Shown here in pieces: positions 52,993 through 64,000 of a DNA stretch of 64,000 nt. This DNA comes from Burkholderiales bacterium (GTDB lineage Bacteria; Pseudomonadota; Gammaproteobacteria; Burkholderiales; SG8-39). Position 1 is the first letter of the stretch; each line of letters opens with the position of its first letter. The notes under the pieces were generated by a model, which was given only the letters and a program-made list of their open reading frames with translations, did not search any database and had not been told where the DNA came from. The stretch spans positions 3,133-67,132 of the forward strand of contig JADGRQ010000019.1 of the NCBI GenBank assembly GCA_017880775.1, read 5' to 3'. Position numbers and translations under genes: made by a program.

Positions 52993-53069
52993 TGGCGGAG
53001 TGGACGGGACTCGAACCCGCGACCCCCGGCGTGACAGGCCGGTATTCTAACCAACTGAACTACCACTCC
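52993..53069 (-). tRNA. tRNA-Asp(GTC)
   Basis: 77-nt cloverleaf GGAGTGGTAGTTCAGTTGGTTAGAATACCGGCCTGTCACGCCGG...GTTCGAGTC...CCGCCA. Confidence 0.97.
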
Positions 53070-53073
53070 TGCA

Positions 53074-53121
53074 TGGTGGGTGCGGAGAGGGTCGAACTCC
53101 CGACATCTGCCTTGTAAGGGC
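53074..53121 (-). repeat. att site: 48-bp duplicate of the tRNA-Val 3' end
   Basis: Identical to 63336-63383; diverges just beyond the anticodon stem. Confidence 0.95.
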
Positions 53122-53228
53122 GGAATTCCGGGCTTTCGGCGTCCATCCACGTCCATCTAAATACACAACCTACAGAGGGAAAACCGCCAAACCGTCTACA
53201 CCAGTCCACTTGCGTTTAAGGCCGTACA

Positions 53229-53250
53229 GTTTCATACTCGTTTCGTACCT
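53229..53250 (+). promoter_or_regulatory. Tandem 11-bp repeats, candidate integrase arm-type sites (left)
   Basis: gtttcatactc gtttcgtacct, matched by the pair at 63281-63302. Confidence 0.6.
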
Positions 53251-53266
53251 GACCGGAATCTCGACC

Positions 53267-54393
53267 ATGCGCATCGACCGAGTAGACACCCGAGCCAAGC
53301 TCAAACTACGCCGCGACCCCTACTGGTATCGCATCCTGCAGGGCCGCTACATCGGCTATCGCCGGATGTCTGTCACGACCCCCGGCACCTGGCTCGCCCG
53401 ATACTACGACGGCGAAGTCTACAAATACCACCGTCTCGGCGAATTCGAGATTTTACCCGAAAAGGGGCGCTTCGACGCTGCCCGGCGCGCGGCTGAGGAG
53501 TGGTTCAAGCACCTGGACCGCGGCGGCTCGAGCGTGGCATCGAGCGTTAAGGCCGCGTGCGCCGCCTACGTCGAGCATTTGAAGGTCGAGAAGTCAGAGG
53601 CGGCAGCCGCGGATGCGAAGGGGCGCTTCGGCCGGCTGGTCGACGCCGATCTGCTCGGCCCGATCCTGCTGCAAAAGCTGGCTCCACGTCATGTAGTCGA
53701 TTGGAAAGTCCGGGTGCTCGCGAAAGGCGGCACGCGCGGATCGTTCAACCGCAACGCAACTGCACTGCGGGCTGCGCTCAACCTTGCCTATCAGCGCCGT
53801 GAAGTAGCCAGCGACCATGCTTGGTCAGATGAGCTTCGACCCTTCAAGCAAGCCGATGGGCAGCGCACGCTGTACCTCGACCTCGACGCGCGTCGCAAGC
53901 TGATCGAGAAAGCCCCCGCGGAAGTACGTCCCCTGCTCACGGCGCTGGCGCTGGTGCCCATGCGCCCGGGTGAACTGGTCAACACCTGAGGGTCGAGAAC
54001 CTGGACGCAGCACAGCGCCTCCTGAACGTCCCCGGAGGCAAGACCGGGGCGCGGCCGATCCCGCTCGGCGCCGAGGCGCTGGCGCACTTCACGGAATGCG
54101 CGCGCGACAAGCTGCCCGGAGCGTGGCTGATTGCGCGCAGCGATGGCGGGCAGTGGACCCGCTATTCATGGGGCGACGCGGTCAGGGAAGCCGTACAGGC
54201 CGCGAAGCTACCGAAGGCCACCTGCGCCTACACGCTGCGGCACAGCTCGATCACCGATCTCGTCAAGGGCGGCTTGGATCTGTTCCACGTCGCCAAGGTC
54301 GCCGGCACGAGTGTGCTGATGATCGAACGGCATTACGGGCACCTGCAACGCGAGCACGCGAGGAGCGCGCTCGAGAAGCTGGCCCTTGCATAG
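53267..54393 (+). pseudogene. Tyrosine integrase, frameshifted near 53985
   Basis: PMRPGEL (catalytic R) in the first frame. Removing 2 nt from aacacctg restores GGKTG...AYTLRHSSIT...AGTSVLMIERHYGHL to TAG at 54393. Confidence 0.88.
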
Positions 54394-54487
54394 ACCGACC
54401 CGGCGGATTCCGGAAAGCGGCCCGAACGCTCGCGATAACGAGCGCCGGGCCTGACCACAACGCAGCACCTGATTGGAGGTACGCATC

Positions 54488-55258
54488 ATGGCTGAGCGGC
54501 AGTCTACTGCTGAAGACCTGAAGAGCGGGTCCGACCTATTCGCCGACTTCTACAACGGGACCCAGGAGGAACTTGTGGCCGCCGGCGTCTGCAAACGCAA
54601 TTGGTTTCCCGAGGCGCTAATTCCGGAGTTCTGCAAGGATGGGCGGCCAAAGATTGGGAACAACGGGCGCCAGCGCTACAAGCGCACGTATTGCGTCGAG
54701 AATTCTTCGCCTGCTGTTGAGCTTTGGCATCGCCGAGATTCCTTCGGGCACGAATTTTGGATCGTTCGTATCGAAGTTACGAAACAGGAAGCCGCACGGC
54801 GCCAGACCGACAGTAACCGGGAAGCCGAAACACAGGCCAGAGAGGACGAAAAGCGGTGTCGTGAACGGGAGGAACAGACCGCTCGTGCGAAAGAGGCGGC
54901 GCGTCCGGTCGTCAGCCAATTGCGCAAGCGTTACCCAGACCTAATCCTCATCGAGGGTGAAATTCATACTTGCGACGATGGAAACCGCGTGCAGAGCCTG
55001 ACGTTCTACGCTCGCTCGTTGGAGGCTCTCCGTCGGCACGATCTGTTGACGGAGGAGATCTTGAGCGTTCCGCTGGAGAACAACAATAGCTTCGGTGAGA
55101 TCAAGGGCGGCGGCAGTTTCTTTTTCTTCTCCGGCAGTGACGCCCGCGGAGCGTACTGGTATATCACCCTGCGAACTCAAGAGACGCTGCGGGAGAGGAA
55201 ATGCTTCCCGGTGACGGAAGCGAGGGGACTGCTCAAGAGTATCGCCGCCAGAGCATGA
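54488..55258 (+). CDS. Hypothetical protein (element cargo)
   Basis: Long ORF with RBS ggagg; no family recognised. Confidence 0.6.
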   Translation: MAERQSTAEDLKSGSDLFADFYNGTQEELVAAGVCKRNWFPEALIPEFCKDGRPKIGNNGRQRYKRTYCVENSSPAVELWHRRDSFGHEFWIVRIEVTKQEAARRQTDSNREAETQAREDEKRCREREEQTARAKEAARPVVSQLRKRYPDLILIEGEIHTCDDGNRVQSLTFYARSLEALRRHDLLTEEILSVPLENNNSFGEIKGGGSFFFFSGSDARGAYWYITLRTQETLRERKCFPVTEARGLLKSIAARA

Positions 55259-55785
55259 ACCGCGGCGAACGCTCAGTGAGCAGGAAGAGCAAGGTACCGC
55301 GGGCCAGATCACCGGCTCGCGTTGCTTCGCGCAAGAAGTCTGATGAAATGTTTGTCATGGTCAAGGGATCGGGCGGTGGATTCGTTCTTTCCTTGTACCG
55401 ACTGGAGCAGATCGAAGCTGCGCTCAGGCGAGGTGATCCACTTGACGATCGCGCCCGGCGGGATGTGCTCAGGTTGATTGATCACGTCGCATTCCGTCAC
55501 CTGCAGGAAACCTGGTCCCACCGCGGACGCCGGGCCGACCCAACGATGAAGCTGTGCGCTGCAATCGTCCATGAGCTTCACGCGCACCATGGAATCAAGA
55601 TTGAGGCCGCTGTGTCGGCGATGGTGCGCGAGGATTTCGGCACCGAAGATGCGCGCCGCAAGTTGCGCCAAAATATAGAGCGCGCCCATCGAACGCTCAA
55701 TGCCAGCGGCACGAAATATCCTGTCGCCGAGAGACTTGTGCGTGAGGCCCTGGCGCGCATCAATCCCCCGCAAGACCGGAAGTAA
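55255..55785 (+). CDS. Hypothetical basic, helical protein
   Basis: ATGA-coupled to the upstream ORF; no family recognised. Confidence 0.55.
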   Translation: MNRGERSVSRKSKVPRARSPARVASRKKSDEMFVMVKGSGGGFVLSLYRLEQIEAALRRGDPLDDRARRDVLRLIDHVAFRHLQETWSHRGRRADPTMKLCAAIVHELHAHHGIKIEAAVSAMVREDFGTEDARRKLRQNIERAHRTLNASGTKYPVAERLVREALARINPPQDRK

Positions 55786-55872
55786 TTCGCTCGAATTGTT
55801 TCCGCCTGTTGTTCTGGCGTAGCCTGCGCCGCATGTTCTAGTCTGTGTCCGTAGTGCTCTTAAAGGACGGAC

Positions 55873-56112
55873 ATGGATACAAAGGCATCTGCGGCACAAG
55901 CCGGATTCTCAATCGCTGAGTGGGCTCCTGCAGCCGGAATATCACGCTCCGGCTATTACGTGCTATCGGCCGAGATCAAGCCGGCCTCGGTGAAAATTGG
56001 CAAGCGGACGATCATCACTGAAGCGCCCGCCCGATGGCTGCGGCGCGTGGCCAAGATGCAGCGCGGAGTGCAGCGCGGAGTTCCGACTGCTGAGACCAGC
56101 AAGGCCGCTTGA
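55873..56112 (+). CDS. AlpA/excisionase-like HTH protein
   Basis: FSIAEWAPAAGISRSGYY...VKIGKRTII...WL winged-HTH pattern; RBS aagga. Confidence 0.75.
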   Translation: MDTKASAAQAGFSIAEWAPAAGISRSGYYVLSAEIKPASVKIGKRTIITEAPARWLRRVAKMQRGVQRGVPTAETSKAA

Positions 56113-56113
56113 C

Positions 56114-56305
56114 GTGGACGCTTCGGCGCCCGTGCAACTGGATCACGGCATTCGCTCGCGCACGTTGCGCGATGCTGGGCTGAGGGCGATCGAGCGCGGC
56201 GATCTCGGGGTCGCCAAGCAGTGCCTGATCGAGTTGGGGCATTCCGGGCTCGATCTCGATTTTCGAACGTTGTCTACGGCGTATCTCGCCGCGGCGGCGA
56301 TCTGA
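56114..56305 (+). CDS. Small hypothetical protein
   Basis: Fills the gap between the AlpA-like and rep-like genes; GTG start. Confidence 0.4.
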   Translation: MDASAPVQLDHGIRSRTLRDAGLRAIERGDLGVAKQCLIELGHSGLDLDFRTLSTAYLAAAAI

Positions 56306-56319
56306 CCGGGCTCGGCTGA

Positions 56320-57078
56320 ATGGCGAGAGGGCGCAAAAAGCTCGACTCATCGCGCGACCACGGCGGATTTGTGGCGCTGCCGTGGAGCGTGCTCGATTCC
56401 GCCGCCTACCTATCCCTGTCCGCCCATGCCAAGGCGCTGCTGTTGGAGGTTGCCCGGCAGTATCACCGAGACGACAACGGCCGCATGCTGCTGTCACGCA
56501 AGTACCTGGCGCCGCGGGGCTGGAATAGCAGCGACATGATCATGAAGGCGAAGCGCGAACTGCTCGAGGCTGAATTGATCTTCGAGACTGCCAAGGGCAT
56601 GCGACCGAACAAGGCGAGCTGGTACGCCTGCACCTTTTACTCGCTCGACAAGATCCTCGGCTTCGACCCTGGAGTTGAGCAGGCGTTTGAGCGCGGAGCC
56701 TATCGCAAGAAAAACGGCGCATGCCTTAGACCGTCAGGCGGTACAGAGAAGCCCGCCATTGCACCGCCCCACGGTACAGGGACACCCCTTGCTGTACCGC
56801 CCCACGGTGCTATCAGACCCATTTTCGACCCTCTCTCTGTACCGCAGGACGGACACCCTCAAGAGTTGCCATCTACAGGTGTTCGAATTGAAGGTGGTCT
56901 TGCTGCTGTTGAATCAGATTCTGAAGCAAAAAAGGGAGGAAAAACCCGATCGCGCGCCGTCGCGCCGAAAGCGGCATGGATTTGCCGACACCCGGGCTGC
57001 GAGACGATCGCGCTCAAGCGGTACTGCGACAAGCACCGGAACACGGCGGTCGCGGACACGGCGGCGGCCGGCGCATGA
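56320..57078 (+). CDS. Phage/satellite replication-initiator-like HTH protein with C-terminal Zn ribbon
   Basis: FVALPWSVLDS.AYLSLSAHAKALLL...NG HTH N-terminus, internal iteron-like repeats, C-terminal CRHPGC...YCDKH. Confidence 0.6.
   Translation: MARGRKKLDSSRDHGGFVALPWSVLDSAAYLSLSAHAKALLLEVARQYHRDDNGRMLLSRKYLAPRGWNSSDMIMKAKRELLEAELIFETAKGMRPNKASWYACTFYSLDKILGFDPGVEQAFERGAYRKKNGACLRPSGGTEKPAIAPPHGTGTPLAVPPHGAIRPIFDPLSVPQDGHPQELPSTGVRIEGGLAAVESDSEAKKGGKTRSRAVAPKAAWICRHPGCETIALKRYCDKHRNTAVADTAAAGA
56730..56853. repeat. Four ACCG-N5-CGG(T) palindromes, candidate iterons/origin
   Basis: At 56730, 56763, 56796 and 56841 (spacing 33, 33, 45 bp), followed by an AT-richer tract. Confidence 0.6.
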
Positions 57079-57312
57079 GCACGCACAGCCGCGGCTTCGG
57101 GTTGGTACAGGCCGCAGCAGCGACGCCCCGATGCGCTGCGTCCTTACCCTCAACCGCATTGCGATCGCGCAGCCTGCGCCAGCCTGGCGGCGATGTGGGT
57201 ATCCCCGGCGGGGGACTTCGGCATTCGATGTTCGTGTCGAGCGAAGGACCGTCGGCCAATCATTTAATCGCATGCCCAGAATTGACGAAATCGAATTCGG
57301 TGGAGAAACTCG

Positions 57313-57588
57313 ATGACTGACGCTTGCCCGAAGTGCGGCGCCCCGATCCCCGACGCGGGCGGACCTGGCCGGCCGAAAATCTTCTGCTCGACCGGCTGCC
57401 GGCGCTTGGCAGAGTACGAAATCCGGCGACTCAACGAGACGATCGGCAAGCTTGAGGACTCGGCGCGATCGCTACGCAATCCGGCGACGTTGCACCTCGA
57501 AAGCGACGCGCTCCACCTCGATTTTCTGGCAGCGGAAATTGCGCGGGCGGAAGCTCGTCTGCGCGCGTTGATTACGGCGGATGGATGA
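57313..57588 (+). CDS. Small Zn-finger/coiled-coil protein
   Basis: CPKCG...GRPKIFCSTGCR; RBS ggag. Confidence 0.6.
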   Translation: MTDACPKCGAPIPDAGGPGRPKIFCSTGCRRLAEYEIRRLNETIGKLEDSARSLRNPATLHLESDALHLDFLAAEIARAEARLRALITADG

Positions 57589-57905
57589 AGGCGAAGCTAC
57601 AGACGCTCAAACCCCAGGTGCCGATGCAGGGTGATCGGCTGCCGGTGATGCGGCCGGGATACGGGTTTGACGCTACCCCGCGTGATCGTGGGCGCCCATG
57701 GAGGCGTAAGCGTGCGGCCTGGCTGGCCGAGCACCCTCTGTGCTGCGCGTGCGAAGCCAAGGGCCGAGTCGCGGTGGCCGTGATCGTTGACCACGTCGTG
57801 CCCCTTTGGCGTGGCGGAGCGGACGACGCGAGCAACTACCAGTCGTTGTGCGGACCTGACCACGCGGCCAAGTCGGCGCGCGAGGCGGTTGAGCGTGCGA
57901 AGTAA
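57585..57905 (+). CDS. HNH endonuclease (cos-phage packaging type)
   Basis: HPLCCAC...VDHVVP...GG...NYQSLCGPDHAAKS. Confidence 0.88.
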   Translation: MKAKLQTLKPQVPMQGDRLPVMRPGYGFDATPRDRGRPWRRKRAAWLAEHPLCCACEAKGRVAVAVIVDHVVPLWRGGADDASNYQSLCGPDHAAKSAREAVERAK

Positions 57906-58096
57906 TGACGGGGGGCTTCGCGATATCGGCTTCGACCCTTTCGCGGATACCTCGTCATGTTCCATTCATACTTTAAATCCTCGTTTGATTTAATCATCAA
58001 ACCGCAGGGAATCATCAAACTGTCGGAAATCATCAAAATGCCGATCTGGTCTTCTCCGCGCTTTGATTTCCGTTTGATTCTTGCGGAGGTTTGATT
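57905..58096. promoter_or_regulatory. Candidate cos/packaging site with repeated protein-binding elements
   Basis: Lies between HNH and the TerS-like gene. AATCATCAAA x3 at an 18-bp period, TTTGATT x4, and inverted repeat atgacgggg/cctcgtcat. Confidence 0.6.
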
Positions 58097-58366
58097 ATGG
58101 CTAGGGGTGGTTTCCGGGCGGGCGCGGGGCGTCCAAAGCGCAAATCAAACCCTGCGCCTACCGCGCCTGTAAGCGTCCCTGACATGCCCGCGACGGCGCA
58201 TGCACCCGAGACATTGATCGGGAAACTGGTGAAGGCGATCACGCCCGAGCCGAAACCTTTTCGGATACTGGTGCGCACTGCGGACGGTTTCGAGTCTCGG
58301 CCCGTGACCGCTGAGGAAGCGATCGCCTATTGCAACGGCTCGCACACCTGGCGGCGCATCGGCTGA
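58097..58366 (+). CDS. Short terminase-small-subunit-like DNA-binding protein
   Basis: MARGGFRAGAGRPKRK N-terminus typical of TerS; position after HNH and the cos-like region; RBS ggagg. Confidence 0.55.
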   Translation: MARGGFRAGAGRPKRKSNPAPTAPVSVPDMPATAHAPETLIGKLVKAITPEPKPFRILVRTADGFESRPVTAEEAIAYCNGSHTWRRIG

Positions 58367-58369
58367 CTG

Positions 58370-58711
58370 ATGCGACTGAATGACCCATTCAACCGCACGC
58401 GCCTGCCGGCGACTTTCGACCGCGCGGGCAGGGTGCGGCTGCTCGGCGAAGCAGCGAAGGCGCTGCTCCGGGGCAAGTTGCCCGAACTCGACGCGGCGTT
58501 GTGGCTGGGCGGCGCCCTCGCTGGGTGGTTGGCAAACGGCGGCGATCTCGAGCGCGACTACTTGGAGGTGACCGCAAAGGCAGGTAGCCACCATACGCCC
58601 GCTGCGCTCTGGCGGAACCTGCAGGAAAAGCCCTCCTCGCGAGGAACGACAGACGCCGAAGGCGCCGATACGATCGACCCGTCATCATCTAAAAGCGAGT
58701 CGAAAAAATGA
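58370..58711 (+). CDS. Hypothetical protein
   Basis: ORF tightly packed in the operon, ATGA-coupled to the capsid gene. Confidence 0.55.
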   Translation: MRLNDPFNRTRLPATFDRAGRVRLLGEAAKALLRGKLPELDAALWLGGALAGWLANGGDLERDYLEVTAKAGSHHTPAALWRNLQEKPSSRGTTDAEGADTIDPSSSKSESKK

Positions 58712-59763
58712 GCTTCCCCACTGGCAGCACGTTCGTTCGCACCGTCAAGGCTCTCGGCGTAGCGCGGGGCGATGCCGTCGGCGCGATGGCCTACGCGAGC
58801 AGCCAGAACTGGGGCAACGCGCACGAGATTGTCGCGTCGATTAAGGCCGCAGTGACAGCGGAGCGGACAAGCGATTATTTGCTCCCGACGCCGGCTCAGT
58901 CCGATTTCGCGGCATTCATTAGGCCGCAAACAATTCTCGGCAAGTTGATCGGATTACGGCGCGTGCCTTCGCGGGTGCGAGTGATCGCGGCGACGTCGGG
59001 CAGTACCGCTTTTTGGAGTGGCGAAGCAGCGCCTCGGCCGATGAGCCGCATGACGTTCTCAGGTAGCACGCTCGAGCCGCTGAGCATTGTTGCCATGTTG
59101 GTAACGACCGCCGAGTTGCTCCGTTCATCCTCGCCATCGGCGGAAAGCATCTTGAGCAGGGACCTTGCGGCCGCAGCGGTGCAGGCCGCGGACGAAACGT
59201 TCATCGATCCGGCAAACGCAGGGATTGCCGGCGTGAAGCCCGCTGCGATTACCAACGGCGTCACCGCGATTCACTCCGCAGGAAGTACGCTCGCCAATCT
59301 CGACAGCGACCTCGCGCTGCTGATCGAGGCACTGAGCGATGCTGGCTCCGATCTTAGCTTCGCAACGTTCGTGATGCGCCCCCGCACGGCGCTGTGGCTG
59401 AGCGGCTTGCGGGGCTCTGGCGGCACGCTTGCCTACCCGGGCATGGGTGTCAAGGGCGGCACGCTGCTCGGGCTGCCCGCGATTGTGAGCGCAGCCGTGC
59501 CTTCGAGTGTCGGATCGCCTGCCGAGGGCGGGAACATAACGTTGCTGGATCCGTCGCAGGTCGAGTACCTCGACGAAGGCGCTGGAGCGATCGAGGTTAG
59601 CGAACACGGCTCAGTGCAAATGTCGGACGTGCCCGGTAGCGGCGCTACGACACTTACGTCGCTTTGGCAAACGGACTCTGCTTGTTTGAAAACGACCCGT
59701 TACCTTGGGTGGCAAGCCGTCCGCTCTGGCATGGCGCAGTTGGTCGATCAGGTCGCGTACTAG
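58708..59763 (+). CDS. Major capsid protein (HK97 fold) without protease domain
   Basis: FIRPQTILGKL..LRRVP, AFWSGEAAPRP, TAELLRSSSPSAE, FIDPA..PAAITNG, GTLLGLPAIVS and SLWQTD motifs. Confidence 0.88.
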   Translation: MSFPTGSTFVRTVKALGVARGDAVGAMAYASSQNWGNAHEIVASIKAAVTAERTSDYLLPTPAQSDFAAFIRPQTILGKLIGLRRVPSRVRVIAATSGSTAFWSGEAAPRPMSRMTFSGSTLEPLSIVAMLVTTAELLRSSSPSAESILSRDLAAAAVQAADETFIDPANAGIAGVKPAAITNGVTAIHSAGSTLANLDSDLALLIEALSDAGSDLSFATFVMRPRTALWLSGLRGSGGTLAYPGMGVKGGTLLGLPAIVSAAVPSSVGSPAEGGNITLLDPSQVEYLDEGAGAIEVSEHGSVQMSDVPGSGATTLTSLWQTDSACLKTTRYLGWQAVRSGMAQLVDQVAY

Positions 59764-59778
59764 ATCGGAGCAACGGAG

Positions 59779-60480
59779 ATGCAGCGCGACACGCCAGAAA
59801 TCCAAGCATTGAACGCGGAGTTCAACGCCCCCGGATCCACAATGCACGTGGTCGAATACGGAGCGCGCATGGCAGAGCTCCGGGCGCGTGCGTCGGTTGG
59901 GTCTGTGTCGGACAAGGGAATATTCATAACGATCGAGGGTTTCAAAGGCTGGGTCGCAAAAGTCCCGCACGTCATGATCGACGCGATAACGAAGATGCTG
60001 GAGCCGGCGCACGCGCGGCTCGCCGAATTTGATGCACGGCTGCGGGGTGTCGATAGTTTTACCGCGGCGCTGAGCAGGCTTGAGCGCGCCTTGGACGCGC
60101 CTGTGATCCCGCAATACGACGCCACCGGAAAATTGATCGGTGTCCGTAGAAACATCGCCGATCCCCCTCCGCGCACGAGCGGCGGCGGCGCTAACACGGC
60201 GCTCGCGGACGCAGTGGAGCACCTTGAGGAAATGATCGCGGCGGATGTAGTGCCGATCTTCGAAGGCGGCAAAATCGTCGGCGCCAAGCGAGTAGGCGCG
60301 CGCAGCGGTGCGCTCGTTGAAGCGGTCAATGCGCTCGCGCGCAAGCTCGAAGAGCCTGTGCACCAGATCTTCGACTCGAAAGGGCGAGTGACCGGCGCGC
60401 AGCGCACAGCAACGCTCGACGGCGGCGGCGTTGCGGCGTTGGAGGCGCGCATCGCCGCGCTCGAACAGCGGTTTCTATAA
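59779..60480 (+). CDS. Hypothetical coiled-coil protein with three internal repeats
   Basis: PQYDATGKLIGVRR / PIFEGGKIVGAKR / QIFDSKGRVTGAQR; RBS ggag. Confidence 0.65.
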   Translation: MQRDTPEIQALNAEFNAPGSTMHVVEYGARMAELRARASVGSVSDKGIFITIEGFKGWVAKVPHVMIDAITKMLEPAHARLAEFDARLRGVDSFTAALSRLERALDAPVIPQYDATGKLIGVRRNIADPPPRTSGGGANTALADAVEHLEEMIAADVVPIFEGGKIVGAKRVGARSGALVEAVNALARKLEEPVHQIFDSKGRVTGAQRTATLDGGGVAALEARIAALEQRFL

Positions 60481-60484
60481 ATTG

Positions 60485-60760
60485 ATGCGCAAGATTTCTG
60501 CGCTCGACGTGTCCGCTGAACCGACGTCACATCCAGCGGGCTCGCCGCTCGCGGCGCTGGAGGCGCGAATCGCCGCGCTTGAACAGAGGCCGCCGCAGCT
60601 TACTTACACCGGAATTTGGGACGGATCCATCGAGTACAGCCCGGGCCAAGTGGTGACGCATTCGGGGTCGATGTTCTATTGCTGGGCATTGACCCGCAGC
60701 AAGCCAGGCGAATCCAACAGCTGGCAATTGTGTGTCAAGCGTGGACGGGACGCACGATGA
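60485..60760 (+). CDS. Phage head-module small beta-domain protein
   Basis: YTGIW...YSPGQVVTHSGSMFYC...KPG...WQLCVKRGRD resembles the C-terminal domain of a portal-adjacent protein of lambdoid cos phages (from recall). Confidence 0.6.
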   Translation: MRKISALDVSAEPTSHPAGSPLAALEARIAALEQRPPQLTYTGIWDGSIEYSPGQVVTHSGSMFYCWALTRSKPGESNSWQLCVKRGRDAR

Positions 60761-61002
60761 AAAAACCCGATCGCATCATCGCCCAGGTTGCGGACCCCGA
60801 TCTGCCCGCACCTGTTCGCGAGATCGTTGCCGGGCGGCATCGCGTAACGATTTCCGGGCCCTACACCGAAAGCCACGTCAAAGCGTATCGCAAGCTCCTC
60901 GATTCGGTGGAGTTGCAGCAGCAAGAGACACTTCGCCGCGCGCGCGAGATCGCCGAGCAGCTCGCGTTTCTCGCTCCGCGCAATGGCGAAACCCTTCACT
61001 GA
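60757..61002 (+). CDS. Hypothetical protein
   Basis: ATGA-coupled ORF directly before the tape measure gene. Confidence 0.5.
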   Translation: MKKPDRIIAQVADPDLPAPVREIVAGRHRVTISGPYTESHVKAYRKLLDSVELQQQETLRRAREIAEQLAFLAPRNGETLH

Positions 61003-61021
61003 TAAGCAAGGAGCCTAGACC

Positions 61022-63256
61022 ATGCCAGTCTTGCAAATCGACATAGAGTCGCGCTGGGCAAAATTTCAAGATTCACTCGATCTTATGGAGCGCAGCACCA
61101 GGCGCACCGCGAATCAGTTGTCGAGCGCGTTCGATGGCGTCAAGACTGCTCTCGCTGCGATTGGCGTCACGGTCGGCGCTGGCATGTTCGTCGGGATGGT
61201 CAAAGGTTCGATCGACGCGGCCGACCAGCTTGACCGATTGACGAAGTCCACCGCTCTCACCGTCGAGGAACTCGCTGGCCTGAAGCTGCTGGCCGCGGAA
61301 AGCGGTACGGACCTGGACGGGATCGCCAAAGGCATCGACAAGATGTCGGTCGCGATGGGGAAAGACCCTGAAAAATTCAAGGCACTCGGCATCACCGCGA
61401 AGGACAACAAAGAGGCGTTCAAGCAGTTCGCCGATATTTTCAATCTCCTGCCGGACATCCAGCAGCGCAATGCGCTCTCGCAGGCGGTGTTTAACAAGAG
61501 TTGGGCCGAAATTGCGCCGATCTTGGCGTTGGGCGGGAAAGCCATCGGCGAGATCATGGACAAGGGCGTTGCGTTATCCGGAGCTACCAAGGAAATGTCG
61601 GACCAGGCGCACGCGTTCATGGTGCAGATGGCCGAACTGGAAACGACTCTCGGAGCAACGAAGACAAAGCTCGTCGGAGATATGCTGCCCGGCATGAACG
61701 ACATCGCGACCGCGATGCGCGAGGCAGCGAAAGAGGGCGGATTGCTGACGACGGTGTGGGTGGGTTTGGGCGGGGTGATGGCGAACCTGCTCGGGCAGAC
61801 CGATGCGCAGAAACTAAAGGCGCAACTTCAGGGCATCAACGATCAACTCGACGCAGCGCGCCTGCGGTTGCAGTCCGGGACGACGAACCCGGAAGGATCG
61901 AACAAGAGCTTCTTTTCGTTCCTCGTGCCGGACATCAAGGTAAGCGATGCTGCGCTTGCGAAGCTGCACGCCTACATCGACGCTCTGGAAAAAGAGAAGG
62001 CGCGCTTGACTCCGGCGGAGAAGGCGGTAGCTCCGGCCGCGGATCCTGCAGCGCAAGCGGCAGCTTCAGCGCTGGCCGCGGCGTTCCTGAAACCTCCCAA
62101 GGTCGTTTCGGACGCGATGACGCTATTCGAGCGCACGATGCAGTCGCTCACGAAGGAATACGCCAACCTCACCCACGAGGGCAAGCTTTCAACCATCATG
62201 TGGGAGGAGGAAAACGGCAGCCTGCAAAAACTTACCCCGAAAGAGCGCGAGCAGGTTGAGGCATTGGCCAAGAAGTTCGACGCCTACAAGCGCGACGTGG
62301 ACATGCGCAAGATGGTTGTGGTTGGGATCGAGGCGCAGGTCAAGGCGCAGGATGAGGCGACGAAGGTCGCTACCGACTACCAGCAGGCCAACAAGGCCGC
62401 GATCGACGACCTGGTGTTTCAGGGGACGCTGTTCGGCAAGACCGCGAACGAACAGGAACTGCTCACCGCCGCCAGGAAAATCGACCTCGACGCCAGACGA
62501 GAGGCGGCGGCGCTGCCCATGGACACCGAAGGCAACATGCTGCCCGGCGGAGCAGGCGCGCTGGAAAAAATCCGCAGTTCGGCGGACAAGACGAAAGCGG
62601 TCTACGCGGAGATGATCGCAGACCGCCAGAAGCTCGACCGCGAATGGGCCACCGGCGCCAACGCGGCATTCATGGACTACATCGACCACGCGACCAACGC
62701 GGCCGAGCAGGCGAAGAACTTCTTCACCGACGCATTCAAGGGGGCCGAGGATGCGCTGACCAACTTCGTCACGACGGGGAAGCTCGATTTCAAGAGCCTG
62801 GCCGATTCGGTCATCTCGAACTTGGTCCGCATCCAGATTCAGGAAAGCATCACCGGGCCGATAGCTAAAGCGATGAAGGACTCCGGCGGGGCGTCTGGTT
62901 TGATCCGCAAACTATTGGGAATAGGCGACGGTGGCATGACTCCCGCCGATGCCTTCGCGGGCGGCGTGATCCCGATGGCGGCCGGCGGGGACTTCATGGT
63001 ATCCAGACCGACGCTGTTTCTCGCTGGCGAGGCGGGGCTGGAGCGCGCCACGTTCAGCGGGGCGAATGGCGCAGGCGGCGGAGCGCCCAACGTCGCGATC
63101 AACGTCAACAATCAGGGCGCCCCTGTCCAGTTGACGCCACAAGGCGCGCCGAAGTGGGACGGGCAGCAGTGGGTGATCGATGTGGTGCTCAACCGGCTGC
63201 ATACCGACGCCGGGATGCGTGATTCGATGCGCGGGGCGCTGGGAGCGCCTGCCTGA
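61022..63256 (+). CDS. Phage tail tape measure protein (lambda-like C-terminal domain)
   Basis: 744 aa, Ala-rich and helical; WATGANAAFMDYIDHATNAAEQ...AFKGAEDALTNFVTTGKLDFKSLADSVISNLVRI and AAGG...GEAGLE motifs; RBS aaggag. Confidence 0.88.
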   Translation: MPVLQIDIESRWAKFQDSLDLMERSTRRTANQLSSAFDGVKTALAAIGVTVGAGMFVGMVKGSIDAADQLDRLTKSTALTVEELAGLKLLAAESGTDLDGIAKGIDKMSVAMGKDPEKFKALGITAKDNKEAFKQFADIFNLLPDIQQRNALSQAVFNKSWAEIAPILALGGKAIGEIMDKGVALSGATKEMSDQAHAFMVQMAELETTLGATKTKLVGDMLPGMNDIATAMREAAKEGGLLTTVWVGLGGVMANLLGQTDAQKLKAQLQGINDQLDAARLRLQSGTTNPEGSNKSFFSFLVPDIKVSDAALAKLHAYIDALEKEKARLTPAEKAVAPAADPAAQAAASALAAAFLKPPKVVSDAMTLFERTMQSLTKEYANLTHEGKLSTIMWEEENGSLQKLTPKEREQVEALAKKFDAYKRDVDMRKMVVVGIEAQVKAQDEATKVATDYQQANKAAIDDLVFQGTLFGKTANEQELLTAARKIDLDARREAAALPMDTEGNMLPGGAGALEKIRSSADKTKAVYAEMIADRQKLDREWATGANAAFMDYIDHATNAAEQAKNFFTDAFKGAEDALTNFVTTGKLDFKSLADSVISNLVRIQIQESITGPIAKAMKDSGGASGLIRKLLGIGDGGMTPADAFAGGVIPMAAGGDFMVSRPTLFLAGEAGLERATFSGANGAGGGAPNVAINVNNQGAPVQLTPQGAPKWDGQQWVIDVVLNRLHTDAGMRDSMRGALGAPA

Positions 63257-63335: not shown

Positions 63336-63410
63336 TGGTGGGTGCGGAGAGGGTCGAACTCCCGACATCTGCCTTGTAAGGGCAGCGCTCTACCACTGAG
63401 CTACGCACCC
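63336..63410 (-). tRNA. tRNA-Val(TAC), intact; integration target
   Basis: 75-nt cloverleaf GGGTGCGTAGCTCAGTGGTAGAGCGCTGCCCTTACAAGGCAG...GTTCGACCC...CACCA. Confidence 0.96.
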
Positions 63411-63423
63411 TCCGCGAAACCAT

Positions 63424-63696
63424 TCAGTTTAGCCCATCCTTGAACGCTTTTCCAGCACGGAACTTCGGTACGTGCGCAGCCTTGATCCTGATTTCGGCGC
63501 CGGTGCGCGGATTGCGCGCGTCGCGCGCAGCGCGCTTGCCGACGTAGAACGTGCCGAACCCCACCAGGGTCACGTTATCGCCTTTGCGCAGGCTCGTCTT
63601 GATCGCGCCGACCATCGCATCGACCGCGCGCTCCGCCGCCGATTTGGAGATTTCAGCGGCCTGCGCGATCTGCTCGATCAAGTCCGACTTGTTCAC
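63424..63696 (-). CDS. hupB: DNA-binding protein HU
   Basis: [23 protein letters not shown] and PKFRAGK motifs. Confidence 0.95.
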
Positions 63697-63704
63697 CCGG
63701 CCCC

Positions 63705-64000
63705 CTAATGTGTCGTCAGGGCGGAGCCGGGCTTGTCGTCACCCGGCGCGATCGGCGCTACCGCGACCGGCTCAGGCAGAGGCTCCGGCCGCCGCTCGAG
63801 CGCGCGTTCGAATACCTGGTCGATCCACCTCACCGGGATGATCTCGAGGCGGTTCTTGACGTTGTCCGGAATCTCCGCGAGGTCCTTCGCGTTTTCCTCC
63901 GGAATCATCACCGTCTTGATCCCGCCACGCACCGCCGCAAGCAGCTTCTCCTTCAGCCCGCCGATCGGCAGCACTTCGCCGCGCAGCGTAATTTCGCCGG
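63705..64000 (-). CDS. lon: Lon protease, 3' end (partial)
   Basis: [22 protein letters not shown]...IPEEN..DL.EIP. Confidence 0.93.

What the first reader, a model, noticed from the sequence alone, without database searches (positions are those of the whole stretch)
61022..63256. Intact tape measure gene with no other tail gene, ending ~80 bp from att
Seen: a 744-aa uninterrupted ORF with a strong RBS and lambda-type C-terminal motifs is the last gene of the element. Known: TMP sets tail length and takes part in DNA injection and in sensitivity to superinfection exclusion. Inference: the element may substitute its TMP into helper tails, to change tail length or injection specificity or to evade exclusion, or use it as a dominant-negative tail poison.
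Basis: partly seen in the sequence, partly recalled or inferred. Interest (0 to 1): 0.85.

Follow-up and report, generated by a model that had tools for sequence, protein, structure and literature searches.

The report
Tape-measure gene in a mini phage satellite
A 10-kb mobile island in a tRNA gene carries its own phage capsid gene and an intact tail tape-measure gene but no other tail parts; it looks like a stripped-down phage satellite that puts its own ruler protein into tails borrowed from a helper phage, a trick that has only recently been shown in other satellites.

Summary
Window 61022-63256 is an intact 744-aa lambda-family tape measure protein (TMP) gene. It is the last gene of a 10.3-kb island bounded by a 48-bp direct repeat of the tRNA-Val 3' end, and its stop lies 79 bp before the right repeat. 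No other tail family was detected.

- an HK97-type capsid gene lies 1.26 kb upstream in the same tightly packed operon;
- the integrase carries a frameshift;
- the assembly shows no helper prophage.

The island is not a random remnant. Metagenomic and genomic relatives repeat the layout integrase, capsid, TMP without tube or tip genes. Some are equally minimal (L050, L059). Others are cf-PICI-like, with TerL, connectors and a tail terminator (L177).

Their TMPs nest among TMPs of complete siphophages in at least four places. They match the length of their nearest phage TMP (1003 vs 1003 aa; 665/666 vs 662). They are under purifying selection (dN/dS 0.08). One shares a recently recombined N-terminal 600 codons with a phage.

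Satellite-encoded TMPs that build chimeric tails were shown for Vibrio PLEs (Nature 2026) and drawn for some cf-PICIs. I therefore read this as a new, minimal variant of a known kind. This copy is possibly stranded.

The parts
53074..53121 (.). attL: left copy of the 48-nt direct repeat, a duplicate of the tRNA-Val 3' part
   Evidence: 100% identical to 63336-63383. It lies just right of tRNA-Asp 52993-53069.
53210..54393 (+). Tyrosine integrase, split by one frameshift. The N-part is 53210-53989. The C-part with the catalytic region reads in another frame at 53986-54393.
   Evidence: phrog_1 integrase E 2.2e-12 for the N-part. Three-frame translation is. tblastn with the L050 integrase finds two pieces in two frames, 36% and 58% identity. 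Logan contigs of run X1 show the same letters, but from the same sample, so this is not independent.
54473..57588 (+). Early/regulatory region: ORFs of 261, 194, 79, 252 and 91 aa with no family hit. The 252-aa ORF (56320-57078) is a conserved core gene of related islands.
   Evidence: No Pfam, PHROG or NCBIfam family. Homologues of the 252-aa ORF occur in L050 (40%), L139 (37%), L168 (33%) and L181 (50%).
57585..57905 (+). HNH endonuclease (106 aa)
   Evidence: PF01844 E 8.6e-8; phrog_589 E 6e-24. It is 44% identical to the HNH of the cf-PICI-like island L177.
58091..58711 (+). Two small ORFs (91 and 113 aa) that open the late operon. The 113-aa ORF always lies directly upstream of the capsid gene in relatives.
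   Evidence: No family hit. Homologues of the 113-aa ORF occur in L167 (53%) and L168. Gene spacing is 3 and -4 nt.
58708..59763 (+). HK97-fold major capsid protein (351 aa), without the protease/scaffold half that is fused to it in phrog_617 and in L166/L177
   Evidence: PF05065 E 1.3e-17. phrog_617 E 1.8e-40, matching profile positions 322-626 of 626. It is the only PF05065 hit in the genome.
59779..60760 (+). Capsid-adjacent pair: a 233-aa orphan ORF (59779-60480) and a 91-aa ORF (60485-60760) made of a coiled coil plus a CBM5/12-like domain. Both carry the same 13-residue coiled-coil motif, encoded by an imperfect repeat 118 bp apart, so this may be one split gene.
   Evidence: Repeat D6 at 60433-60471 and 60551-60589, 90% identical. 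The junction was read. The 91-aa ORF hits phrog_1289 at E 3e-12 and has homologues right after the capsid gene in L178 (fused 245-aa form, 44% over 94 aa) and L181 (47%). The 233-aa ORF has no relative, and its AF2 model has pLDDT 54.8.
60757..61002 (+). 81-aa ORF directly upstream of the TMP gene, function unknown
   Evidence: One true relative among 1.84 billion representatives (P0123, 59 aa, 62%). The AF2 model has pLDDT 73, a beta-hairpin plus a long helix. No fold match at E <= 0.001.
61022..63256 (+). Tape measure protein, 744 aa, intact, last gene of the late operon and of the island
   Evidence: It keeps 68 of the 79 columns that are invariant in its five closest full-length relatives, within the 79-88% range of those relatives themselves. 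It starts 19 nt after the preceding ORF.
63336..63410 (-). tRNA-Val(tac). Its 3' 48 nt (63336-63383) are attR.

Best explanation
The ORF is a genuine tail tape measure gene. It belongs to a 10.3-kb tRNA-Val-integrated phage satellite of the capsid-encoding kind, stripped to a minimum: integrase, a few early genes, HNH, own HK97 capsid protein, three small capsid-adjacent ORFs and the TMP.

Inferred mechanism:
1. When a siphovirus helper of the lambda/HK97 type replicates in the cell, the island's late operon is expressed.
2. Its capsid protein builds heads sized for about 10 kb, using the helper's portal, protease and terminase.
3. Its TMP enters the helper's tail-initiation complex, so the tube is polymerised around the satellite's TMP. 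These are chimeric tails, as shown for Vibrio PLEs.
4. The TMP must therefore fit the helper's chaperone, tube and tip. This explains why satellite TMPs in this family are close relatives of phage TMPs, have the same length, and recombine with them.

The benefit is inferred, not shown. It could be preferential supply or capture of tails for satellite heads, or entry into cells or past factors that act on the helper's own TMP.

The window copy has a frameshifted integrase and no resident helper, so it may be a stranded copy whose TMP is still intact.
For: Shown here:
- Island borders and operon packing. The borders are a 48-nt repeat, and the eight late-operon genes from 58091 to 63256 are spaced -4 to 19 nt apart.
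- The layout recurs at deep divergence.
  - L050: integrase, a homologue of the 252-aa ORF, capsid (41%), two small ORFs, a TMP of 1003 aa, bounded by a 55-nt repeat in tRNA-Val(cac).
  - L059: tRNA-Arg, integrase, capsid, the same two small ORFs, a TMP of 902 aa.
  - L168.
  - L139 and L150: capsid, an ORF I read by eye as a prohead protease (no family search run), a portal homologue, TMP.
  - L080.
  - L166 and L177: primase, HNH, TerS, TerL, protease-capsid fusion, adaptor, head closure, tail completion, tail terminator, TMP. There is no tube, chaperone or tip, apart from a gpM-like ORF in L166.
  - Sources.
- Most relatives are ordinary phages. Among 62 non-redundant TMP-relative loci with at least 3 kb downstream, 53 have conserved same-strand tail ORFs after the TMP. 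Five of the nine without are these compact islands.
- Island TMPs nest among phage TMPs. At least 4 changes are forced by starred branches, in a tree of 98 rows.
- L050 and phage L066 share only the TMP gene: 88.7% nt identity over 2845 nt, starting at the start codon. L066 has portal, adaptor, head closure and neck genes upstream, and tail assembly, minor tail and tail protein genes downstream.
- dN/dS is 0.077 for TMP between two islands (L139 vs L150, dS 1.39). For L050 vs L066 it is 0.144, with dS 0.08-0.16 in codons 1-600 against about 2 in codons 601-1003.
- Lengths match: 1003 vs 1003 aa, and 665/666 vs 662 aa.
- The window TMP is as conserved as its relatives.

From the literature:
- PLE TMPs are found in PLE virions while ICP1's TMP is excluded. 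Deleting tmp cuts transduction by 96-99.9%. Putative tmp genes are drawn in PLE-like elements and in a sampling of cf-PICIs (PMC12987554: section 8 read in full, plus passages of the discussion and the legend of Extended Data Fig. 10).
- EPIP satellites of Mycolicibacterium carry a capsid gene and a TMP (PMC12822802, passages).
Against: - No experiment bears on this island. No RNA data exist and no helper is known.
- The integrase is frameshifted and the capsid-adjacent gene looks split. The copy may be decaying.
- The genome has no other PF05065, PF03354, PF04860 or PF10145 hit and no second TMP. tblastn with 887 ORFs of related phage loci finds only the island.
- The window TMP sits on a long branch (0.61, against 0.05-0.29 for its clade mates). 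I have no phage partner closer than about 50% identity for it.
- The island has no portal, protease, TerL, connector or chaperone. A working particle therefore needs many helper parts to accept a foreign capsid protein and a foreign TMP at once.
- The small ORFs between the capsid gene and the TMP are not homologous between the window and L050/L059.
- Capsid-bearing relatives without a TMP exist (L167, L181), so the TMP is not essential to the kind.
Confidence: 0.55

Rival explanations
1. Inert remnant. The island is a dead satellite or a heavily deleted prophage, and the TMP ORF is merely not yet broken. It does nothing in this cell.
For: - The integrase is frameshifted.
- The capsid-adjacent gene is apparently split by an imperfect 118-bp-spaced repeat.
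- No helper-type genes occur in the 97.8%-complete assembly.
- The TMP sits on a long branch.
- Read depth equals that of the flanks, and no excision or empty-site joint appears in the only run that holds the island (contigs only, from the likely source sample).
Against: - A 744-codon frame stays open, with 68 of 79 family-invariant columns kept, the same as its relatives.
- Operon-like spacing leaves no scars.
- The same reduced layout occurs in L050 and L059 at 40% capsid identity.
- Purifying selection acts on the TMP, the capsid gene and the small ORFs in relatives.
- This rival concerns only this copy, not the kind of element.
Confidence: 0.2
2. Interference or defence. The TMP (and capsid protein) act mainly against the phage, as mismatched subunits that spoil the helper's tail or head assembly and so protect the host population. 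They are not parts of the island's own particles.
For: - Satellites commonly interfere with helper assembly. Tail assembly is a known target of satellite- and prophage-borne genes: Tai (PMC11364771, passages) and Rta of PLE11 (PMC12987554).
- The window island lacks most head genes, so self-packaging is demanding.
Against: - Island TMPs keep the length of the nearest phage TMP and up to 98% N-terminal identity to it. That is what fitting in requires, not poisoning.
- The known tail-assembly inhibitors in those papers are small unrelated proteins, not TMPs.
- Larger relatives (L177) add adaptor, head closure, tail completion and terminator genes. That is a set for joining heads to tails.
Confidence: 0.12
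3. Tail-length resetting. The island's TMP exists to give its particles a tail of a different length from the helper's.
For: - TMP length sets tail length (textbook knowledge, also stated in PMC12987554).
- PLE11 tails are about 10 nm shorter than ICP1's (same paper, section 8).
- EPIP particles have longer, variable tails (PMC12822802, passages).
- The window TMP is 744 aa, against 591-633 aa for its three nearest N-terminal relatives L159, L085 and L009.
Against: - In both island/phage pairs that are close enough to compare, lengths are equal or within 4 residues.
- The closest full-length relatives of the window TMP are 760 and 715 aa.
- In PLE the length change is small, and the paper does not claim it as the benefit.
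Confidence: 0.08

Closest known systems
PLE satellites of Vibrio cholerae (TMP + tail assembly chaperone + baseplate hub; chimeric tails with ICP1 parts) - Nature 2026, PMC12987554
   Same: Both are integrative satellites that encode their own TMP while taking the tube and fibres from the helper. In PLE the TMP is needed for transfer. Here it is inferred to be functional from purifying selection in relatives.
   Different: - PLEs use a myovirus helper and the helper's capsid protein, and they also encode a chaperone and a hub protein.
- PLE TMPs are only about 20% identical to the helper's, by the paper's figure.
- This island encodes its own capsid protein. It has no detectable chaperone or hub. 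In its family the TMPs are close to phage TMPs (51-89% full-length identity).
- I did not test sequence relatedness to PLE proteins, because I held no PLE sequence.
[quoted passage not shown] 10b of PMC12987554
   Same: - Integrase at one end, HNH, own HK97 capsid protein, tRNA-type attachment site, tails taken from a helper.
- The relative L177 has the full cf-PICI-like set plus a TMP.
   Different: - The window island lacks TerL, portal, protease, head-tail adaptor and connector, which define cf-PICIs in SatelliteFinder (PMC10085698, passages).
- That tool also treats tail profiles as forbidden components, so TMP-bearing islands are rejected by design.
- I could not see the figure or the accession numbers, so I cannot say whether relatives of this island are among those drawn.
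EPIP satellites of Mycolicibacterium aichiense (bioRxiv Dec 2025, PMC12822802)
   Same: They are small satellites that encode a major capsid protein and a TMP but no tail tube or fibre genes.
   Different: - EPIPs have an actinobacterial host, a serine integrase, and a scaffold, TerS, adaptor and stopper.
- They are reported as extracellular particles with long variable tails.
- No sequence comparison was made here.
Lambda-family tape measure proteins of complete siphophages (Pfam PF09718; e.g. the tail modules of loci L066 and L159)
   Same: - The same protein family.
- A conserved N-terminal region of about 250 aa (up to 57% identity to phage TMPs) and the C-terminal Tape_meas_lam_C domain.
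   Different: In phages the gene is preceded by a conserved small ORF, the putative chaperone (30 members), and followed by tip genes (53 of 62 loci). Here it is preceded by an orphan 81-aa ORF and followed by attR.
P4-like satellites
   Same: Small size (about 10-11 kb), tRNA-linked integration and dependence on a helper for virion parts.
   Different: P4 uses the helper's capsid protein and remodels it with Sid and Psu (recalled, not from a call). It has no capsid or TMP gene. No Psu, Sid, Delta or alpha-primase family was hit among the island's ORFs.

Membership tests
Lambda-family tail tape measure protein | Tape_meas_lam_C domain (Pfam PF09718) above the gathering score | tested here: met
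   E 1e-27, 96.5 bits against a cut-off of 23, residues 541-615.
Lambda-family tail tape measure protein | NCBIfam TIGR01541 equivalog-domain cut-off | tested here: not met
   72.8 bits against a cut-off of 104.75. It is a relative, not an equivalog by NCBI's threshold.
Lambda-family tail tape measure protein | Sits in a tail module: chaperone gene upstream, distal tail and tip genes downstream | tested here: not met
   No homologue of the phage upstream-ORF family. attR lies 79 bp downstream.
Lambda-family tail tape measure protein | Determines tail length and occupies the tail lumen | not testable with these tools
   This needs virions.
Phage satellite (general) | Small integrative element with att repeats and an integrase | tested here: met
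   48-nt direct repeats 10,262 bp apart in tRNA-Val. The integrase is present but frameshifted.
Phage satellite (general) | Lacks a full set of virion, packaging and lysis genes | tested here: met
   Only a capsid protein, an HNH endonuclease and a TMP were recognised among 14 ORFs.
Phage satellite (general) | Mobilised by a helper phage | not testable with these tools
   No helper was found in the assembly. No excision joint appears in the one run that holds the island.
cf-PICI | Own major capsid protein | tested here: met
   PF05065 and phrog_617.
cf-PICI | Own large terminase | tested here: not met
   No island ORF hits a terminase family. PF03354 has no hit in the whole genome. Other TerL Pfam families were not searched genome-wide.
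cf-PICI | Own portal and prohead protease | tested here: not met
   No hit among the island's ORFs. PF04860 has no hit in the genome.
cf-PICI | Head-tail adaptor and connector genes | tested here: not met
   No connector PHROG for any island ORF. The relative L177 has them.
cf-PICI | No tail genes (a forbidden component in SatelliteFinder) | tested here: not met
   A TMP is present. The rule is quoted from PMC10085698.
PLE-type chimeric-tail system | Satellite-encoded TMP | tested here: met
PLE-type chimeric-tail system | Satellite-encoded tail assembly chaperone next to tmp | tested here: inconclusive
   The 81-aa ORF upstream has no family, no fold match and only one relative. The phage-type upstream ORF family is absent.
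PLE-type chimeric-tail system | Satellite-encoded baseplate hub or tip protein | tested here: not met
   Nothing lies after the TMP in the window. The relative L166 has a gpM-like ORF (PF05939 E 5.6e-30).
PLE-type chimeric-tail system | Satellite TMP incorporated in transducing particles | not testable with these tools
   This needs purified particles.
Complete or recently deleted prophage | Near-identical complete relative, with deletion scars | tested here: not met
   - Phage database: 336 records match, all below 60% identity, and none covers 80% of the TMP.
- The best protein among 5.8 billion is 47% identical.
- Genes are tightly packed.

The most novel reading that the evidence does not exclude
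Islands that carry only a capsid gene and a tape measure gene may form an unrecognised, widespread class of minimal satellites in Proteobacteria. Current satellite finders would miss them because those tools forbid tail genes. In this class the TMP would be the exchangeable key that matches a satellite to its helper's tails. It would be swapped by homologous recombination inside the TMP gene itself, using the conserved N-terminal 250 residues and the C-terminal domain as anchors. Helper range would then be reset by recombination with whichever siphophage shares the cell. The L050/L066 mosaic, with a nearly identical first 600 codons and a saturated remainder, would be such an event caught in the act.
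Probability: 0.3. Interest if true: 0.7.

Novelty: new variant of a known kind. Interest (0 to 1): 0.5.

Why it matters
Until 2025 satellites were thought to steal whole tails. Tail genes were even used as an exclusion criterion when satellites were searched for (PMC10085698). PLEs have since been shown to build chimeric tails with their own TMP, but why they do so is still open (PMC12987554, discussion passage).

This island and its relatives add three things:
- a siphovirus-type, proteobacterial example;
- the smallest gene set seen so far in the papers I found, namely capsid protein plus TMP;
- comparative facts that narrow the why. The satellite TMPs keep the length of the nearest phage TMP, stay under purifying selection, and recombine with phage TMPs at the gene's borders.

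These facts point to fitting the helper's tail rather than altering it. They also give concrete satellite/phage pairs, L050 with L066 and L139/L150 with L136, on which TMP specificity could be studied. The work also shows that satellite catalogues built with 'no tail gene' rules undercount such elements.

Tried and rejected
**Searches and jobs that led nowhere**
- Searching one genome per species by peptide pattern found no relative of the TMP or of the capsid protein.
- Among 60 nearest genomes only weak partial TMP matches appeared (6 of 60, at most 33% identity over part of the protein).
- The ESM Atlas gave no usable hit for the 81-aa or the 233-aa ORF.
- The 233-aa ORF has no relative in the 5.8-billion-protein set at E <= 1e-3. 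Its single-sequence AF2 model has pLDDT 54.8 and was not used for fold search.
- Similarity of its N-terminus to the fused 245-aa ORF of L178 is not significant (E 0.53). 'Split gene' therefore rests on the shared motif and on the position of the 91-aa ORF's homologues, not on that alignment.
- The 81-aa ORF had 5 hits at E <= 1e-3 among 1.84 billion representatives: itself, one true relative, and three low-complexity repeat ORFs that I discard as spurious. Its AF2 model (pLDDT 73.2) had no PDB match at E <= 0.001.
- Complex prediction of the TMP with the 81-aa ORF returned 'no answer' (score 0.00). This is no evidence either way.
- The promoter and terminator scans found no more sites than in shuffled sequence.
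- Sequencing runs: one holder only, labelled permafrost metagenome and probably the source. No RNA holder is listed.
- Contigs of that run cover the island at depth about 8, like the flanks. They show no convincing excision or empty-site joint. The two listed joints have 20-21-nt sides and are not at the att repeats.
- No terminal repeats were found on L139, L150, L166, L167, L168 or L053. I dropped the idea that L139 is a circularly permuted packaged genome.
- The PDB sequence search found nothing for the capsid protein and only non-significant hits for the 91-aa ORF.

**Considered and rejected**
- Gene transfer agent: rejected because the island has an integrase, att repeats and a tRNA site.
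- Complete prophage cut by the window edge: rejected because both att copies lie inside the window.
- Tail-length change as the main role: see the rivals.

- Supplements and figures of PMC12987554 and PMC12822802 were not visible.

**What I saw of each paper**
- PMC12987554: section 8 in full, and passages elsewhere.
- PMC12822802, PMC10085698, PMC11364771 and PMC13669383: passages only.
- All other titles: search listings only.
- My statement that capsid-plus-TMP minimal islands of Proteobacteria are not in print rests on those four searches alone.

**Rows dropped**
- 10 loci with N-termini identical to another locus (listed).
- TMP ORFs whose N-terminal match was under 150 aa.


Full report
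**1. What is at the coordinates**

Window 61022-63256 (+) is one uninterrupted 744-codon frame with an ATG start. AAGGAG lies 8 nt upstream.

The product is a tape measure protein:
- Pfam Tape_meas_lam_C at residues 541-615, E 1e-27.
- Ten PHROG families annotated tail length tape measure protein; the best two reach E 1.2e-30.
- NCBIfam TIGR01541 at 72.8 bits, below its cut-off of 104.75.
- Two solved TMP chains at E 2e-7.

The gene's stop is 79 bp from a 48-nt perfect direct repeat. The other copy of that repeat lies 10,262 bp to the left, at 53074-53121 against 63336-63383. The right copy is the 3' part of tRNA-Val(tac).

**2. The island**

Between the repeats all genes read rightwards:
- a tyrosine integrase, 53210-54393, broken by one frameshift near 53986;
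- five ORFs without any family;
- an HNH endonuclease, 57585-57905;
- a late operon, 58091-63256, packed with spacings of -4 to 19 nt.

The late operon holds, in order:
- two small ORFs;
- an HK97-fold major capsid protein, 58708-59763 (PF05065 E 1.3e-17; phrog_617 E 1.8e-40, matching only the capsid half of that protease-capsid fusion family);
- a 233-aa orphan;
- a 91-aa ORF with a coiled coil and a CBM5/12-like domain;
- an 81-aa near-orphan;
- the TMP.

None of the other ORFs hits a tail family. The 91-aa ORF's domain matches PHROGs labelled portal or tail fibre. Its homologues in L178 and L181 sit right after the capsid gene, so I read it as capsid-associated. That reading is an inference.

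The assembly is 4.3 Mb in 88 contigs and 97.8% complete. It has no second TMP. It has no other PF05065, PF03354, PF04860 or PF10145 hit. tblastn with 887 ORFs from related phage loci finds no cluster other than the island. No resident helper was found.

**3. Remnant or a kind of element?**

The TMP has no close relative in isolated phages. There are 336 matching records, all below 60% identity, and none covers 80% of the protein. It has none in 60 neighbouring genomes either. In 5.8 billion proteins the best hits are 47% and 43% identical over more than 90% of its length.

Scans of metagenome and viral contigs with an alignment of these proteins gave 157 loci. Most are ordinary siphophage tail modules. 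Of 62 non-redundant loci with at least 3 kb after the TMP, 53 have same-strand downstream ORFs conserved across loci. Four of the other nine have large unshared downstream ORFs and look like phages. The remaining five are compact islands: L050, L139, L150, L177 and L080. L059/L060, L168, L166 and L053 are further cases, cut by contig ends.

The compact islands in detail:
- **L050.** Integrase (37% to the window's), a homologue of the window's 252-aa ORF (40%), a capsid protein (41%), two small ORFs and a 1003-aa TMP. A 55-nt repeat in tRNA-Val(cac) bounds a 15.9-kb island. Its last 6.5 kb, after the TMP, hold no PHROG tail family.
- **L059.** The same order next to tRNA-Arg.
- **L139 and L150.** They share a 5.6-kb block (79.5% nt identity) with a capsid gene, an ORF I read by eye as a prohead protease (no family search was run on it), a portal homologue, a small ORF and the TMP.
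- **L177.** This lies in a complete genome of the same order, bounded by a 56-nt repeat in tRNA-His (18.3 kb). It carries primase, HNH, TerS, TerL, a protease-capsid fusion, adaptor, head closure, tail completion, tail terminator and then the TMP. It has no tube, chaperone or tip gene.
- **L166.** This is its relative, with a gpM-like ORF after the TMP.

Capsid-bearing relatives without a TMP also exist: L167 and L181, the latter with a 50% homologue of the 252-aa ORF. The capsid profile found 6 of 400 other genomes of the order.

The window island is thus one member of a diverse set of capsid-encoding islands in which a TMP, and no tube or tip gene, is a frequent last gene of the morphogenesis operon.

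**4. What the TMPs say**

*Phylogeny.* On a tree of the conserved N-terminal 260 residues, the seven island TMPs need 5 changes of label, and starred branches force at least 4. The tree has 98 rows and was built with a quick IQ-TREE search under LG+G4, with SH-aLRT support only. The placements are:
- the window TMP sits in a 100* clade with L085, L009 and L159, and L159 is a full tail module;
- L139/L150 are sister to phages L136/L131;
- L050 pairs with phage L066.

*The L050/L066 pair.* L066 has portal, adaptor, head closure and neck genes upstream of its TMP. Downstream it has glycoside hydrolase, tail assembly, minor tail and tail protein genes. L050 and L066 share nothing but the TMP gene. 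Nucleotide homology of 88.7% runs from the start codon for 2845 nt, and the proteins are 89% identical over all 1003 residues.

*Selection.* I used my own Nei-Gojobori count:
- TMP L139 vs L150, both islands: dN/dS 0.077 at dS 1.39.
- TMP L050 vs L066: 0.144 overall. dS is 0.08-0.16 in codons 1-600 and about 2 in codons 601-1003. That is a recombination mosaic.
- Capsid genes: 0.03-0.04.
- The two small ORFs before the TMP in L050/L059: 0.11-0.13.

*Length.* Lengths match between islands and their nearest phages: 1003 vs 1003 aa, and 665/666 vs 662 aa.

*Upstream ORF.* The conserved ORF directly upstream of phage TMPs (30 members) is the putative chaperone. It has no homologue in any island.

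*The window's TMP.* It keeps 68 of the 79 columns invariant in its five closest relatives, within their own range of 79-88%.

**5. Mechanism**

*Shown.* The gene is an intact TMP gene co-oriented and co-packed with a capsid gene in a tRNA-integrated island. Related islands maintain such TMPs by selection and exchange them with phages.

*Established elsewhere.* PLE satellites encode a TMP, a chaperone and a hub protein. PLE virions contain the PLE TMP and not ICP1's. Deleting tmp lowers transduction by 96-99.9%. The authors note putative tmp genes in PLE-like elements and in some cf-PICIs (PMC12987554). EPIP satellites carry a capsid gene and a TMP and have unusual tails (PMC12822802).

*Inferred.* On helper infection the island's TMP is taken up, with the helper's chaperone, into the helper's tip complex. 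The tube then grows around it.

The conserved N-terminal region and the matched length are what such fitting requires. The presence of tail completion and terminator genes beside the TMP in L177 suggests that these islands tailor the head-proximal end of the tail to their own heads.

What the island gains remains open. The candidates are tail capture for its own heads, or entry past factors aimed at the helper's TMP.

**6. State of this copy**

Several features fit a stranded copy in a metagenome-assembled genome:
- the integrase frameshift;
- the apparently split capsid-adjacent gene;
- the long TMP branch (0.61);
- the lack of a helper;
- the single-copy read depth without excision joints.

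The intact, normally conserved TMP suggests either that this is recent or that the TMP is still used.

**7. Comparison and novelty**

The element works like a PLE or a TMP-bearing cf-PICI. It fails cf-PICI membership on TerL, portal, protease and connectors, and on the 'no tail gene' rule of SatelliteFinder. It also lacks the PLE chaperone and hub.

I file it as a new, minimal variant of the recently recognised kind 'satellite that encodes its own tape measure'. Four literature searches found no description of capsid-plus-TMP minimal islands in Proteobacteria. Figures and supplements that might show some were not visible.

**8. Verdict**

- Observation: confirmed.
- Interpretation: partly supported. 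Substitution into helper tails is likely. Tail-length change is unlikely. The poison idea is untested.
- Interest: moderate, 0.5. The principle is already published. The minimal gene set, the length matching and the recombination mosaic are new and testable.

Noticed in passing
window 53980-53990: The island's tyrosine integrase is broken by a single frameshift just after the first conserved arginine box, and the catalytic C-terminal 135 residues continue in another frame. Logan contigs of the same sample read the same letters.
   Followed up: yes
window 60433-60589: An imperfect 39-nt repeat (90% identical, 118 bp apart) encodes the same coiled-coil motif at the end of the 233-aa ORF and near the start of the 91-aa ORF. 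In L178 one 245-aa ORF carries the C-terminal domain after the capsid gene, so the window pair may be a split gene or an exchangeable tip cassette.
   Followed up: partly
L050:9926-12937 and L066:10001-13012: The island's and the phage's TMP genes form a mosaic. Codons 1-600 are nearly identical (dS 0.08-0.16), while codons 601-1003 are saturated (dS about 2). This implies recent recombination inside the gene between a satellite and a phage.
   Followed up: yes
L050:12938-19442: A 6.5-kb accessory region lies between the TMP and attR, with about 13 ORFs on both strands. It gave no Pfam hit (the first 3 ORFs tested) and one PHROG of unknown function (10 tested). It could be a cargo or defence hotspot.
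   Followed up: partly
L177:5762-6113: Four copies of a 34-nt repeat, with nested inverted elements, lie just downstream of the primase gene. They look like an iteron-type replication origin of the cf-PICI-like island.
   Followed up: no
L050:7190-7238: Four tandem 11-bp units (period 11) lie in the gap upstream of the small-ORF and capsid block. They may form a regulatory or packaging site.
   Followed up: no
L166:13976-14311: A lambda gpM-like minor tail protein (PF05939, E 5.6e-30) follows the TMP in this island, then the genes change strand. This satellite carries a TMP plus one tip-complex protein, reminiscent of PLE's TMP plus hub.
   Followed up: partly
L080:3383-12022: This is a further compact island: integrase-like ORF, a homologue of the 409-aa ORF of L059, a 389-aa ORF of another family that may be a capsid protein, two small ORFs and a 688-aa TMP. 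After that come mixed-strand genes without tail relatives.
   Followed up: partly
window 60757-61002 and 59779-60480: The AF2 model of the 81-aa ORF is a beta-hairpin plus one long helix. The low-confidence model of the 233-aa ORF shows the same hairpin-helix unit three to four times. They may be related units, but this is untested.
   Followed up: no
window 52993-53069 and 63336-64000: The island split a tRNA-Asp / tRNA-Val pair. An HU-like gene and what looks like lon lie to the right on the minus strand (read by eye from the translation, not searched). The island's GC is 61.9%, against 64.2% for the rest of the window.
   Followed up: partly
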